Shown: one piece after another, positions 475 through 43,118 of the stretch | Layout of the letters: each line of letters begins with the position of its first letter | How positions within the stretch are numbered: position 1 is the first letter of the stretch | Source: Escherichia phage aalborv | Reading direction: 5' to 3' (one strand) | Sequence record: NC_049829.1 | DNA: 46,660 bases | Made by a program: the position numbers and the translations under genes | Notes under the pieces: model-generated | The model's database searches: none | What the model was told of the DNA's origin: nothing | Seen by the model: only the letters and a program-made list of their open reading frames with translations

Positions 475-1176
475 TTAGCTCCGTTTCCGTGCGCGACGCT
501 CTGCTACTGACGGGCAAATGTCGCTGATTTTAATGTATCGCGTTTTCTGCTGCTCACCTTCTTTTAGTTCGCGCATGATGAAAATAACGCTGCCTTTGTT
601 GTTGCCCTGCACTGGTTTACCTGTAAGCGCGGAAGTAAACGCCAGGCGTCCGGTGCGGGAATATTCTGTTCCATCCTCCTGGTAAACTTCGCCAGTGATC
701 CAGATGATTTCCGCTGCTCGCTGTTGCGCTTCATAAAACCATCCTGTTGATGTGTCGCAAGGTAACAGCATGTCGATCTGGTTGTTGCGCTCCATTTGCT
801 CAATCGCCTTCTTAACAAATGGCGTAATATTGCTGTACGGTGGATTCAGCCAGATATGCTTATTACTACCCCACCAACGCTTTAAGCAATTTGTTTCCTT
901 GCTGTAGAATTTTTCACATACGGCATTTTCTTTGCTCGCCGCCGCGTCGATGTCATAATCACCGTATTCGCTTTCCATCCATGCGACAAGCTCAGACGGA
1001 GTAGACCACAAATCGCGCACAATGTCCGGCGTATTGCTGCCGTTATAGCGGTTGCCAGTCACTTTGAAATATTGATTTGGTTTAACAGCCTGGTAATGAC
1101 CACCAGTAGCAAGAGCATTGCCAATGAATGTTTCGAGTTCTATTTGTTCAAATGTCACTTCGGTTTCTTTGCTCAT
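475..1176 (-). CDS. DNA N6-adenine methyltransferase (Dam-like)
   Basis: 233 aa with catalytic NPPY motif (HIWLNPPYSNITPF) typical of N6-adenine MTases; preceded by motif-type promoter 1205..1255. Confidence 0.7.
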   Translation of the reverse strand: MSKETEVTFEQIELETFIGNALATGGHYQAVKPNQYFKVTGNRYNGSNTPDIVRDLWSTPSELVAWMESEYGDYDIDAAASKENAVCEKFYSKETNCLKRWWGSNKHIWLNPPYSNITPFVKKAIEQMERNNQIDMLLPCDTSTGWFYEAQQRAAEIIWITGEVYQEDGTEYSRTGRLAFTSALTGKPVQGNNKGSVIFIMRELKEGEQQKTRYIKISDICPSVAERRARKRS

Positions 1177-38942: not shown

Positions 38943-39140
38943 ATGGAAAATCAAGTTGATGTTAAAGTTGTACAGCGTGACAAGTCTCACGAAAAAGGTT
39001 TGTTTAAGAAAGGTGCTGAAATCACCATTGACCTTGATGATATGGAGGCGTACCACTCAGGGCTAACTTGGAACGTGCGCAAATGTGAAAACGGCCTGTT
39101 CAAGTTAAATGGCTTTGAAACATACATGGAGATCATTTAA
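38943..39140 (+). CDS. hypothetical early protein (65 aa)
   Basis: ORF track; GAGGATTTAAAA-ATG conserved leader. Confidence 0.5.
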   Translation: MENQVDVKVVQRDKSHEKGLFKKGAEITIDLDDMEAYHSGLTWNVRKCENGLFKLNGFETYMEII

Positions 39141-39877: not shown

Positions 39878-40069
39878 ATGGCAGAAGATGCCGGACTAAA
39901 TAAAGAGTCGGCGCTTGAAGTGGCATATAAAATTAAGACTCTTGATGAGGCTTTAGGTGATATGGATATGGATCTTGAATCAAGCGCAATATTTGCAGAT
40001 CCCACTATGATTGTTAATGATTGTGGATGCGATTTCGATCCTGGTTGTGCGCGCTGTTTTCCGTTTTGA
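39878..40069 (+). CDS. hypothetical acidic Cys-containing protein (63 aa)
   Basis: ORF track; weak SD. Confidence 0.4.
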   Translation: MAEDAGLNKESALEVAYKIKTLDEALGDMDMDLESSAIFADPTMIVNDCGCDFDPGCARCFPF

Positions 40070-40079
40070 GGTAATGACG

Positions 40080-40790
40080 ATGTATAAAGGTTTAATATTC
40101 TCCCTATTTGATGGATCTGGTAAAGCCGTTAAAGATTGGGCTGATAATGGCTATAAGTGCATTTGCTTTAATGCTGACGGCGGCGATCACGGTGATTACC
40201 AGTCAGTGCGCATACAGCATGAGAATATCGAATATGTTAACGTCTGGATTGATGAAAGATTTTACCACCGCGCGCGCTGGGAGGAATGGGGCATTCCTGA
40301 CTTTATTATGGCATTTCCGCCATGCACTGACCTTGCAAATAGCGGATCTCGCCATTGGGCTAAAAAACGCATTGAGAATCCATCGTTCCAGGATGAAGCC
40401 GCCGACACTTGCAAAATAGCTGCGCAAATTGCTGATTATTTCGGTGTTCCGTACATGATAGAGAATCCTGTAGGCAAGCTGTCAACGCTATGGCGCAAGC
40501 CTGATTATACGTTCCATCCGTGCGATTATGCTGGCTATCTGCCGGAAGATGATAAACATCCCGACTTTCCTGATATTATTCCGGCACGGGATCGGTACTT
40601 TAAGAAAACATGCCTTTGGACTGGAAACGGATTTGTTATTCCTCCGCGCGCAACAATCATTCCTAAAGATGGCGACAAGGATAATCCTGGTTGGGCCAAA
40701 ACTGGCGGAAAATCGTCTCGCACAAAGATGATCCGCTCCCTCACACCGCGCGGTTTTGCTCGCGCCGTCTTTGAAGCAAACGCAAAATAG
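40080..40790 (+). CDS. putative compact DNA cytosine-C5 methyltransferase-like protein
   Basis: Start set to ATG 40080 (MYKG, GAGGT SD); FxGxG-like (LFDGSG), PC (FPPCTD) and ENx (MIENPVG) motifs in C5-MTase order; short for the family, so tentative. Confidence 0.4.
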   Translation: MYKGLIFSLFDGSGKAVKDWADNGYKCICFNADGGDHGDYQSVRIQHENIEYVNVWIDERFYHRARWEEWGIPDFIMAFPPCTDLANSGSRHWAKKRIENPSFQDEAADTCKIAAQIADYFGVPYMIENPVGKLSTLWRKPDYTFHPCDYAGYLPEDDKHPDFPDIIPARDRYFKKTCLWTGNGFVIPPRATIIPKDGDKDNPGWAKTGGKSSRTKMIRSLTPRGFARAVFEANAK

Positions 40791-40830
40791 CACTTTTTGT
40801 TAAAAGCCAGGTGTAAAAGCCTGGCATAAT
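40785..40830. repeat. 46-bp exact inverted repeat of promoter module (partner 36073..36118)
   Basis: See partner entry. Confidence 0.85.
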
Positions 40831-41534: not shown

Positions 41535-43118
41535 ATGAATTTTTCGTTTGAAACCAATAAACTAACACCAAAACAAATTATCGAATTAGCTGATGCACAA
41601 GGATTGTCTCCGGTGCGCGTGTCCATTCAGGCAAACGGATACCGTCAATCGTCCAGCTTTTGGGGTGAGGTTAATGATGTTAATAACGGAAACGATCGCT
41701 ACCCTATAATTTCTCTTGGCAATGATGTTGATGTTGTTGGTAAGTTGGCGCGCAACATTGCTCGATCAGTTCAGTTCCCTGAATCATCGGCATATATGCA
41801 TTTTATCGGCTGCGTGTCTGCTGCAATGCTTGGACGCTTCACGGTTGAGTATCACGGAACGGATCAACCAACTGCTCTTTACGTTGTTACAAGTCAGCCT
41901 CCTTCAACTGGTAAATCTGCCGTTAACAGCCTTGCACTTGCTCCTATGGTTGCTGAGGTAGAAAGAATTAATGATCAGCGAAAGAAGGAACGAAAAAAGA
42001 TTCAGGCAAAGTTGGCAGGTCTTGCAAAGGAAATGAAAAGCGAGCGTTCCGGCGCTGATATGGAATCGCTATACCAGGAGAAAGAAGATCTGGAAGAAAA
42101 ACTGGAAAAGATGTGTGACATTGTTTTCCCTGTCTCCGACACCACGCCGGAAGGACTTGCAAGAATCAACAACCGCCAGGGAAACTTTGCTGTAATTTCA
42201 GACGAGGCAACGAGTATTAACAGCCTTTTAGGTCTGACATATGCCAATAGCGAACGTAAAACCAACAGCGAACTTGTGCTAAAAGCATGGGATCATGGTC
42301 ATGTTTCTATAGCTCGTGCAAACGCTGACAACAATATGAGTTTTAAAGCTCTTGGCTGCATGGCGGTAATTGCCCAGGATGAAACAATCAATGCCATCAT
42401 GGACGCAGGATCACGCGGTATCGGTGTAAGTGAGCGTTATTTGCTTGTGCGTGAGGAATCATTTTTAGGTCGTCGAAAGTTTGTTGATGATAACGGTGAT
42501 TCGACTTATGAGCCTGTTGATGGAGAACTGAAAAGCCAATATTTTAAGCTGATCCATAACATAATGAGCGAATCAAACATCCAGCTTAAGATCAGCAAAT
42601 CAGCAATGCGAGTGCTTAACATGGCTCGTCAGGAGATGGAACCGCACCTTGCCGATGGCGGAAAGTATTCTCATACAATGCTGCGCGGCGCGCTTGGCAA
42701 AATGGATAAGCAGGTGATCAGAATTGCTTCGGTTTTGCACACTATCCGCAATTGGTTTAATCCTGGCGGATACCCTCAAAAGTCGAAAGAGATTGAGGTT
42801 GAAACCGTTCAGGAAGCACTGCTGATGTTTAGCGAGTTGAGCAAAACATACATTAGCGCCGCCAACGCTTCTGGCTATGCTGGTGATGATGCTGAAATGG
42901 GTAAACTAATCGAGATTATCACTCGACACGGTAAGGCTAACAAGGGAATCTTGAATGTGCGAGCCATATATGAGGCTGCGCGAAAAGTTAAGCCTTTTGT
43001 TGGTCAGGCTGGCGTAATGAAGCGCATGGAAACGCAACTGCTGCCGATGCTTGAAGAAAGAAATTATATTTGTGTGATTAATGGCGTTGTTTTTGTAAAT
43101 CCAACATTGCTGGGGTAA
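41535..43118 (+). CDS. P-loop NTPase domain protein (527 aa), function unknown
   Basis: Walker A-like TSQPPSTGKSAV; AAGGAG SD; largest protein of the early block. Confidence 0.6.
   Translation: MNFSFETNKLTPKQIIELADAQGLSPVRVSIQANGYRQSSSFWGEVNDVNNGNDRYPIISLGNDVDVVGKLARNIARSVQFPESSAYMHFIGCVSAAMLGRFTVEYHGTDQPTALYVVTSQPPSTGKSAVNSLALAPMVAEVERINDQRKKERKKIQAKLAGLAKEMKSERSGADMESLYQEKEDLEEKLEKMCDIVFPVSDTTPEGLARINNRQGNFAVISDEATSINSLLGLTYANSERKTNSELVLKAWDHGHVSIARANADNNMSFKALGCMAVIAQDETINAIMDAGSRGIGVSERYLLVREESFLGRRKFVDDNGDSTYEPVDGELKSQYFKLIHNIMSESNIQLKISKSAMRVLNMARQEMEPHLADGGKYSHTMLRGALGKMDKQVIRIASVLHTIRNWFNPGGYPQKSKEIEVETVQEALLMFSELSKTYISAANASGYAGDDAEMGKLIEIITRHGKANKGILNVRAIYEAARKVKPFVGQAGVMKRMETQLLPMLEERNYICVINGVVFVNPTLLG

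What the first reader, a model, noticed from the sequence alone, without database searches (positions are those of the whole stretch)
40080..40790. Possible second, compact DNA methyltransferase in the early array
Besides the NPPY Dam-like enzyme (475..1176), the early protein at 40080..40790 has LFDGSG, FPPCTD and MIENPVG in the order of C5-cytosine MTase motifs I, IV and VI, but it is only about 236 aa and lacks an obvious target-recognition domain. If functional, the phage would encode two DNA modification enzymes, which is of interest for anti-restriction.
Basis: inference. Interest (0 to 1): 0.5.

Follow-up and report, generated by a model that had tools for sequence, protein, structure and literature searches.

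The report
Known compact phage Dcm-like cytosine methyltransferase
The 236-residue protein is a real, very small DNA cytosine-C5 methyltransferase, but it is the ordinary "Dcm-like" enzyme of T1-like coliphages, and a near-identical copy has already been shown to make 5-methylcytosine and to set off the retron Ec86 defence.

Summary

The window is a Drexlerviridae (T1-like) coliphage. The protein is 91% identical, without gaps, to the "Dcm-like C5 cytosine methyltransferase" of phage KarlJaspers (Bas06). A KarlJaspers-like phage, K42, has a 711-bp dcm gene whose key residues (C82, E128, K175, K176) have the same numbers here. That enzyme was shown by LC-MS to put 5mC on retron Ec86 msDNA and to trigger the retron (Wang et al., bioRxiv 2023; Cell Rep 2024). 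Phage TLS already names its homolog dcm. The co-occurrence of Dam and Dcm in this family is in the BASEL paper.

The second enzyme is a Pfam Dam at 475..1176, but on the minus strand.

New here, and only circumstantial: CCWGG is not avoided in the window (111 sites). It is denser in dcm+ relatives than in dcm- relatives, and one dcm- relative has purged it.

The exact target base is still not directly mapped in what I could read.

Verdict: already known, low interest.

The parts
40080..40790 (+). Coding sequence of the compact (236 aa) Dcm-like DNA cytosine-C5 methyltransferase
   Evidence: ORF list and sequence. PHROG 757 'DNA methyltransferase' E=1e-84. 91% identical and gapless to KarlJaspers Dcm-like MTase. 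AF2 pLDDT 90 with a C5-MTase fold.
40068..40071 (+). GAGG Shine-Dalgarno, 8 nt before the ATG, overlapping the TGA stop (40067-40069) of the upstream 63-aa ORF
   Evidence: Read from the sequence. Two K42 escaper phages carried a single base change 9 bp upstream of the dcm start codon. In this window that position is the last G of GAGG. The strand of the reported change is my inference.
40104..40121 (+). Motif I (LFDGSG, aa 9-14), AdoMet-binding FxGxG loop
   Evidence: D11 G12 S13 G14 are invariant. Aligns with motif I of DNMT3B in phmmer/hmmsearch.
40314..40331 (+). Motif IV (FPPCTD, aa 79-84) with catalytic Cys82
   Evidence: P81 C82 are invariant. Aligns with the PC of DNMT3B. C82 is one of four residues mutated in the inactive K42 Dcm mutant.
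40455..40475 (+). Motif VI (MIENPVG, aa 126-132), an ENP variant of ENV
   Evidence: E128 N129 P130 are invariant. E128 was mutated in the K42 Dcm mutant.
40590..40610 (+). Motif VIII-like stretch DRYFKKT (aa 171-177). Lys175/Lys176 stand where canonical enzymes have RxR.
   Evidence: D171 Y173 K175 T177 are invariant. K175/K176 were named substrate-binding residues from an AF2 superposition on DNMT3A and were mutated in K42 Dcm.
40611..40727 (+). Short variable segment (aa ~178-216), the probable minimal target-recognition region, ending in the conserved GGKSxRTK
   Evidence: Most variable part of the alignments. Lowest model confidence. Its role in recognition is inferred, not shown.
40731..40754 (+). 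Motif IX-like IRSLTPRG (aa 218-225), followed by the terminal helix
   Evidence: I218 R219 S220 L221 T222 P223 R224 are invariant. Helix 224-234 in the model. The resemblance to the canonical 'RxLTxRE' motif is from my own knowledge.
40806..40825 (+). 7-bp hairpin just after the stop codon, with a CCWGG site in each arm
   Evidence: Fold -13.7 kcal/mol, z=-2.98, 0 of 200 shuffles fold as well. CCAGG at 40807 and CCTGG at 40820. No T-run follows, so it was not called a terminator. Function unknown.
475..1176 (-). Second DNA methyltransferase of the phage: Dam-type N6-adenine methyltransferase (233 aa, LNPPY)
   Evidence: ORF on the minus strand. Pfam PF05869 Dam E=7.3e-61.

Best explanation
The ORF encodes a functional, stand-alone (orphan) S-adenosylmethionine-dependent DNA cytosine-C5 methyltransferase. 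It belongs to the compact 'Dcm-like' family that is standard in Drexlerviridae and several other enterobacterial phage groups.

Mechanism, inferred from the family chemistry: Cys82 of the PPC motif attacks C6 of a flipped-out cytosine. Glu128 of the ENP motif protonates N3. The methyl group of AdoMet, held by the FDGSG loop, goes to C5.

Its most likely target is CCWGG, the E. coli Dcm site. Methylating the fast-replicating phage genome would protect its 111 CCWGG sites from EcoRII-type restriction. The same activity is a liability in hosts carrying retron Ec86 (Eco1). There it methylates the msDNA stem and triggers abortive infection.

Shown elsewhere for a close ortholog: 5mC formation in vivo, dependence on C82/E128/K175/K176, and retron triggering. 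Shown here: orthology, fold, motif conservation and genome-composition patterns. Inferred: CCWGG as the exact site, and the anti-restriction role in this phage.
For: Family and fold:
- PHROG 757 'DNA methyltransferase', E=1e-84.
- Motifs I, IV and VI are invariant across the family.
- The AF2 model has pLDDT 90 and pTM 0.88.
- Foldseek top hits are DNMT3A/3B catalytic domains, E about 6e-8, probability 1.00.
- 14 of 26 relatives touch Pfam PF00145, best E=1.2e-5.

Orthology to a tested enzyme:
- 91% identity with no gaps to KarlJaspers/Bas06 'Dcm-like C5 cytosine methyltransferase'.
- Phage K42 is 95.4% identical in genome to Bas06. It has a 711-bp dcm gene, the same length as here, with C82, E128, K175 and K176.
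- Expressing K42 Dcm raised 5mC in msDNA by LC-MS. The quadruple mutant did not.
- Changing CCTGG in the msDNA stem abolished defence.
- Four escaper phages had dcm lesions.
- 34 of 35 Ec86-sensitive phages encode it.

Genome composition:
- CCWGG has 111 sites, against 60.7 expected from base composition and 106.5 from a maximal-order Markov model, so it is not avoided. Meanwhile 15 or more 6-mer palindromes have no sites at all.
- Across Drexlerviridae loci, CCWGG obs/exp has a median of 1.87 in dcm+ loci (n=48) and 1.25 in dcm- loci (n=12).
- One dcm- relative has CCWGG at 0.12.
Against: - The window protein itself gets no Pfam or NCBIfam hit, even at E<=10.
- Motif VIII is non-canonical (YxKK rather than QxRxR), and no GN-type motif X is visible.
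- In the preprint the CCWGG specificity was taken from E. coli Dcm by analogy. It was supported only by mutating the msDNA site, not by mapping methylated bases.
- The experiments were done in MG1655. To my knowledge that strain has its own Dcm, yet control msDNA had little 5mC. The phage enzyme may therefore differ from host Dcm in site, substrate form or simply dose.
- The composition comparison is not corrected for phylogeny. dcm- phages such as T1 and Rtp do not avoid CCWGG either.
- No experiment was done on this phage.
Confidence: 0.85

Rival explanations
1. It is an active DNA C5-methyltransferase, but its real specificity or substrate differs from E. coli Dcm. Possibilities are the outer C of CCWGG, a shorter or looser motif such as CCNGG or CCW, or a preference for hairpin or single-stranded DNA.
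For: The recognition segment is only about 40 residues and has no similarity to Dcm/EcoRII-type enzymes (no NCBIfam hit). The preprint assumed rather than mapped the site. Control msDNA from MG1655 had low 5mC although it contains CCTGG. MG1655 carrying its own Dcm is from my own knowledge. The closest folds are DNMT3A/B, which read a 2-bp site.
Against: All three substitutions in the CCTGG of msDNA abolished defence. CCWGG density tracks presence of the gene. In this window CCSGG is almost absent (2 against 47.5 expected) while CCWGG is abundant. That pattern is easier to explain if W-centred sites are protected and S-centred sites are not.
Confidence: 0.2
2. It transfers a group other than methyl, for example carboxymethyl from Cx-SAM as in phage CmoX, as the first step of a hypermodification.
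Against: LC-MS found 5mC as the product of the K42 ortholog. CmoX systems come with a phage CmoA and a ligase. None of the five neighbouring ORFs I scanned matches a Pfam family for such a partner, though I did not scan every ORF in the window. DNMT3B and ordinary methyltransferases score as well or better.
Confidence: 0.03
3. It is an RNA (tRNA) m5C methyltransferase of the DNMT2 kind, or an inactive methyltransferase-like DNA-binding protein, rather than a DNA modification enzyme.
Against: The ortholog methylates DNA (msDNA) in vivo in a way that depends on the catalytic residues. All catalytic residues are invariant over more than 3,000 clusters. DNA methyltransferases outrank DNMT2 in both fold searches.
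Confidence: 0.03

Closest known systems
Phage K42 / KarlJaspers (Bas06) 'Dcm', the trigger of retron Ec86 (Eco1): Wang et al., bioRxiv 10.1101/2023.08.16.553469; Cell Rep 2024;43:114857
   Same: Same length (711 bp, 236 aa). 91% identity to the Bas06 protein with no gaps, and residues 121-236 are almost identical. The catalytic and binding residue numbers are the same (C82, E128, K175, K176). Same phage family and same genome position.
   Different: 21 substitutions relative to Bas06, mostly in the N-terminal half. I could not obtain the K42 protein sequence itself. Nothing has been tested on this phage.
Phage TLS 'dcm' (PTLS_gp75) and the other Drexlerviridae 'DNA cytosine methylase' annotations
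   Same: Homologous (65.5% identity to TLS). It sits in the same slot, two small genes upstream of the DUF3987 helicase, in a genome that also carries Dam.
   Different: These are annotations only. I found no biochemical data for the TLS protein.
Mammalian DNMT3A/DNMT3B catalytic domain
   Different: Only 13-19% identity. DNMT3 domains are about 285 residues, act as DNMT3L-assisted oligomers and read CpG. The phage protein is 236 residues, and its oligomeric state is unknown.
E. coli Dcm / M.EcoRII (CCWGG inner-C methyltransferases, Pfam PF00145)
   Same: Probably the same chemistry and, by the published inference, the same CCWGG site.
   Different: No detectable sequence membership. There are zero NCBIfam and Pfam hits for this protein. 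It is about half the size of E. coli Dcm (size from my own knowledge). The name 'Dcm-like' describes the presumed function, not ancestry.

Membership tests
DNA cytosine-C5 methyltransferase superfamily (Pfam PF00145 / DNMT fold) | Motif I FxGxG AdoMet-binding loop | tested here: met
   F10 D11 G12 S13 G14. D11-G14 are invariant in 26 sequences. Aligns to DNMT3B motif I.
DNA cytosine-C5 methyltransferase superfamily (Pfam PF00145 / DNMT fold) | Motif IV Pro-Cys with the catalytic cysteine | tested here: met
   P80 P81 C82, with P81 and C82 invariant. Aligns to the PC of DNMT3B.
DNA cytosine-C5 methyltransferase superfamily (Pfam PF00145 / DNMT fold) | Motif VI ENV with the catalytic glutamate | tested here: met
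   E128 N129 P130 are invariant, with V131 following. This is an ENP variant.
DNA cytosine-C5 methyltransferase superfamily (Pfam PF00145 / DNMT fold) | Motif VIII QxRxR and motifs IX/X closing the AdoMet site | tested here: inconclusive
   The invariant D171-x-Y173-x-K175-K176-T177 replaces QxRxR. An RSLTPRG motif IX-like stretch is present. No GN-type motif X is visible, and the chain ends 11 residues after the motif. No residue-level structural superposition was available to me.
DNA cytosine-C5 methyltransferase superfamily (Pfam PF00145 / DNMT fold) | Score above the Pfam PF00145 gathering threshold | tested here: not met
   No Pfam hit for the window protein at E<=10. 14 of 26 relatives give weak PF00145 hits, best E=1.2e-5.
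DNA cytosine-C5 methyltransferase superfamily (Pfam PF00145 / DNMT fold) | Class I methyltransferase fold most similar to solved C5-MTases | tested here: met
DNA cytosine-C5 methyltransferase superfamily (Pfam PF00145 / DNMT fold) | Catalyses 5-methylcytosine formation in DNA | not testable with these tools
   Reported for the K42 ortholog by LC-MS, and lost in the C82A/E128A/K175A/K176A mutant. Not tested for this protein.
E. coli Dcm / EcoRII-methylase type (CCWGG) | Sequence membership (NCBIfam/TIGRFAM dcm-type models) | tested here: not met
   No NCBIfam family at E<=10.
E. coli Dcm / EcoRII-methylase type (CCWGG) | Methylates the inner cytosine of CCWGG | tested here: inconclusive
   Only circumstantial. 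CCWGG is not avoided here. It is denser in dcm+ than in dcm- relatives, p=3e-6 uncorrected for phylogeny. One dcm- relative has purged CCWGG. The literature inference rests on msDNA site mutants.
Phage triggers of retron Ec86 (Eco1) | Orthology to the K42 Dcm that activates the retron | tested here: met
   91% identical and gapless to the Bas06 protein of the same phage species group, with the same gene length and residue numbering. Triggering by this particular protein is untested.

The most novel reading that the evidence does not exclude
The compact enzyme may not copy host Dcm. With only about 40 residues for recognition, it may read its site differently (another base of CCWGG, a looser motif, or hairpin DNA). 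In about half of the dcm+ Drexlerviridae lineages it goes with an almost complete purge of CCSGG. That would suggest a two-part escape from CCNGG-type restriction enzymes: methylate the W-centred sites and delete the S-centred ones.
Probability: 0.15. Interest if true: 0.45.

Novelty: already known. Interest (0 to 1): 0.15.

Why it matters
It matters little as a discovery. The gene is annotated as a cytosine methylase in many of the 1,500 phage records that carry a homolog. Its activity and its role as the retron Ec86 trigger are published.

It has practical value for this phage:
- It predicts 5mC in the virion DNA.
- It predicts resistance to EcoRII-type enzymes.
- It predicts sensitivity to retron Ec86/Eco1 hosts such as E. 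coli BL21.

Two questions of modest interest remain open. How does a 236-residue enzyme with a minimal recognition segment select its site? Which base does it actually methylate?

Tried and rejected
- **Pfam and NCBIfam scans of the protein:** no hit even at E<=10.
- **phmmer and profile search against PDB sequences:** only marginal DNMT3B matches, E 0.06-0.08, covering motifs I-IV. Fold comparison was needed for a clear answer.
- **CCWGG over-representation as a signature of the enzyme:** CCWGG is 2.7-fold above dinucleotide shuffles, but this vanishes under a maximal-order Markov model (111 against 106.5). It reflects tetranucleotide composition. Only the absence of avoidance is meaningful.
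- **Near-absence of CCSGG as a direct consequence of the dcm gene:** rejected as a general rule. Among 80 dcm+ loci the CCSGG ratio is bimodal (22 below 0.1, 53 at or above 0.7). Loci with nearly identical Dcm recognition segments fall in both classes.
- **Peer-reviewed Cell Reports version:** not held, so details added after the preprint are unknown to me.
- **Searches for independent methylome data on Drexlerviridae:** nothing specific found.

Full report
**1. What is in the sequence**

The + strand between 40080 and 40790 is an ATG-initiated ORF of 236 codons ending in TAG.
- LFDGSG at residues 9-14
- FPPCTD at residues 79-84
- MIENPVG at residues 126-132

A longer mechanical ORF from TTG 40011 (259 aa) also exists, and many database entries use the equivalent long form (257 aa). 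I prefer the ATG at 40080 for three reasons:
- The extension overlaps the upstream 63-codon ORF, which stops at 40069.
- A GAGG lies at 40068-40071, eight bases before the ATG.
- Family conservation starts at about residue 3 of the short form.

**2. It is not a chance motif match**

- PHROGs places the protein in phrog_757 'DNA methyltransferase' (E=1e-84).
- The large protein database returns 3,146 clusters, nearly all 227-260 aa.
- tblastn finds it in 1,500 phage records: Escherichia, Klebsiella, Salmonella, Shigella and other phages, many annotated 'dcm', 'DNA-cytosine methylase' or 'DNA methyltransferase'.
- In a 26-sequence alignment down to 56% identity, several stretches are invariant: D11-G12-S13-G14, P81-C82, E128-N129-P130, W138-R139, D171/Y173/K175/T177, G209-G210 and I218-R219-S220-L221-T222-P223-R224.

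**3. Fold**

Sequence-only methods barely see the relationship.
- Pfam and NCBIfam give nothing for this protein.
- PDB sequence searches give marginal DNMT3B matches over motifs I-IV (E about 0.06-0.08).
- 14 of 26 relatives touch PF00145 weakly (best E=1.2e-5).

Structure settles it.
- The AlphaFold2 model built on the alignment is confident (mean pLDDT 90, pTM 0.88).
- Foldseek against the PDB returns DNMT3A/3B catalytic domains at probability 1.00 (E about 6e-8).

The enzyme is unusually small. Motif VIII is non-canonical (YxKK in place of QxRxR). I see no GN-type motif X. The segment that must serve as the target-recognition region is about 40 residues (about 178-216) and contains the least confident part of the model.

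**4. Whose gene this is**

- The window is a Drexlerviridae (T1-like) coliphage. Its first 25 kb is about 96% identical to Shigella phage SFP17 and Escherichia phages vojen and egaa.
- The gene region is about 90% identical to vB_EcoS-95, SECphi27 and many others.
- In BASEL phage FritzSarasin (Bas04) the 92.8%-identical homolog is annotated 'Dcm-like C5 cytosine methyltransferase'. It sits, as here, two small genes upstream of the DUF3987 'putative helicase' (Pfam for the window's helicase).
- The KarlJaspers (Bas06) protein (QXV82308.1, 236 aa) belongs to the same 90% cluster as the best database hit. It is 91% identical to the window protein with no gaps, and residues 121-236 are almost unchanged.
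- Phage TLS already names its 65.5%-identical homolog dcm. T1 has only Dam, and Rtp has neither.

**5. What is already published**

Wang et al. (bioRxiv 10.1101/2023.08.16.553469; peer-reviewed as Cell Rep 2024;43:114857 according to reference 19 of PMC12916289) selected escapers of retron Ec86 with phage K42. K42 is a KarlJaspers strain 95.4% identical to Bas06.
- All four escapers had lesions in or just upstream of a 711-bp gene for a 'Dcm-like C5 cytosine methyltransferase'.
- Expressing the gene was toxic only in cells with the retron.
- The authors identified C82 as the catalytic residue and E128, K175 and K176 as binding residues from an AlphaFold model superposed on DNMT3A.
- A quadruple alanine mutant was inactive.
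- LC-MS showed high 5mC in msDNA only with the wild-type enzyme.
- Replacing CCTGG in the msDNA stem abolished defence.
- 34 of 35 Ec86-sensitive phages encoded the gene.

The gene length and all four residue numbers are the same in the window protein.

[quoted passage not shown] It found no simple link to restriction phenotypes (PMC8594841).

**6. The second enzyme**

ORF 475..1176 is a Dam-family N6-adenine methyltransferase (PF05869, E=7e-61) with LNPPY. It lies on the minus strand, not the plus strand.

**7. Target site: what I could add**

The preprint took CCWGG from E. coli Dcm by analogy and supported it only with msDNA site mutants. I looked for genomic footprints.

In the window:
- It shows strong palindrome avoidance. 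Fifteen or more 6-mer palindromes have zero sites, and CTAG is at 0.11 of expectation.
- GATC (253 against 177) and CCWGG (111 against 60.7 by base composition) are not avoided.
- The apparent CCWGG excess disappears under a maximal-order Markov model (106.5 expected). The honest statement is 'no avoidance'.

Across relatives:
- I took Drexlerviridae loci recovered through the neighbouring helicase, keeping only those where the dcm slot is covered.
- CCWGG obs/exp has a median of 1.87 (1.00-2.52) in 48 dcm+ loci and 1.25 (0.12-1.57) in 12 dcm- loci (Mann-Whitney p=3e-6, not phylogenetically corrected).
- One dcm- relative (L114) has only 4 CCWGG sites where 33 are expected.
- In parallel, GATC is at 0.2-0.4 of expectation in dam- relatives and 1.1-1.7 in dam+ ones.

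These patterns fit protective methylation of CCWGG and GATC. They do not prove it.

**8. A side observation that did not hold up as a rule**

CCSGG is nearly absent from the window (2 against 47.5) and from TLS (0 against 44), but normal in T1. That suggested a link with dcm.

Over 80 dcm+ loci the ratio is bimodal: 22 are below 0.1 and 53 are at or above 0.7. Loci with nearly identical Dcm recognition segments fall in both classes. Values below 0.2 were seen in 24 of 48 dcm+ loci and 1 of 12 dcm- loci.

I read this as lineage- or host-specific restriction avoidance. It may be complementary to Dcm protection against CCNGG-type enzymes, but it is not a consequence of the enzyme.

**9. Rivals**

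- **A different specificity or substrate form** remains possible (about 0.2). The site was never mapped in what I could read. Control msDNA from MG1655 was poorly methylated. MG1655 being dcm+ is my own knowledge.
- **An RNA methyltransferase or an inactive protein** is contradicted by the ortholog's activity on DNA and by invariant catalytic residues.

**10. Verdict**

This is a real feature, correctly interpreted and already known. Interest is low. The remaining open points are the exact methylated base and how so small an enzyme recognises its site.

Noticed in passing
window 38943-39140 (+): A 65-aa ORF matches Pfam PF25180 'Phage antiviral trigger protein Gp54' over its full length (E=1.3e-38). 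The same early gene block therefore carries a second protein whose family is named as a defence-system trigger.
   Followed up: no
window 41535-43118 (+): A 527-aa DUF3987 protein (PF13148, E=2e-43), annotated 'putative helicase' or 'DNA helicase' in Bas04, T1, Rtp and TLS. It lies two small genes downstream of dcm and served as the anchor for comparing dcm+ and dcm- relatives.
   Followed up: partly
whole window: Strong avoidance of palindromic restriction sites. At least 15 six-base palindromes have zero occurrences. CTAG is 19 against 177 expected, GGWCC 14 against 61, and CCSGG 2 against 47.5. GATC, CCWGG, GCGC and CGCG are at or above expectation.
   Followed up: partly
loci L005-L147 (IMG/VR Drexlerviridae and other dcm+ contigs): The CCSGG purge is bimodal among dcm+ phages (22 of 80 loci below 0.1 of expectation, 53 at or above 0.7). 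It is not explained by the sequence of the Dcm recognition segment. It was seen in 24 of 48 dcm+ loci against 1 of 12 dcm- helicase-anchored loci. The cause is unknown; host-specific CCSGG or CCNGG restriction is my guess.
   Followed up: partly
L114 (IMGVR_UViG_2974594196_000001, 29642-49579): A T1-related contig with no dcm homolog in the 20 kb held has only 4 CCWGG sites (33 expected, ratio 0.12) but 75 CCSGG sites (30 expected, ratio 2.49). This is the mirror image of the window. The other ~30 kb of the contig was not examined.
   Followed up: no
L003, L014-L019, L118-L127 (Rtp-like loci) versus dam+ loci: GATC is at 0.2-0.4 of expectation in relatives lacking the Dam gene and 1.1-1.7 in those carrying it, including the window at 1.43.
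   Followed up: partly
window 40806-40825 (+): A 7-bp hairpin 16 nt after the dcm stop codon has a CCWGG site in each arm (CCAGG 40807, CCTGG 40820). Its free energy is -13.7 kcal/mol, z=-2.98. No T-run follows. Conservation in relatives was not checked.
   Followed up: no
window 40011-40079 (+): Many public entries annotate the homolog with a 21-residue N-terminal extension (257-aa forms, or 774 nt in Bas04). It starts inside the upstream ORF. The 236-aa ATG form fits the ribosome-binding site and family conservation better.
   Followed up: partly
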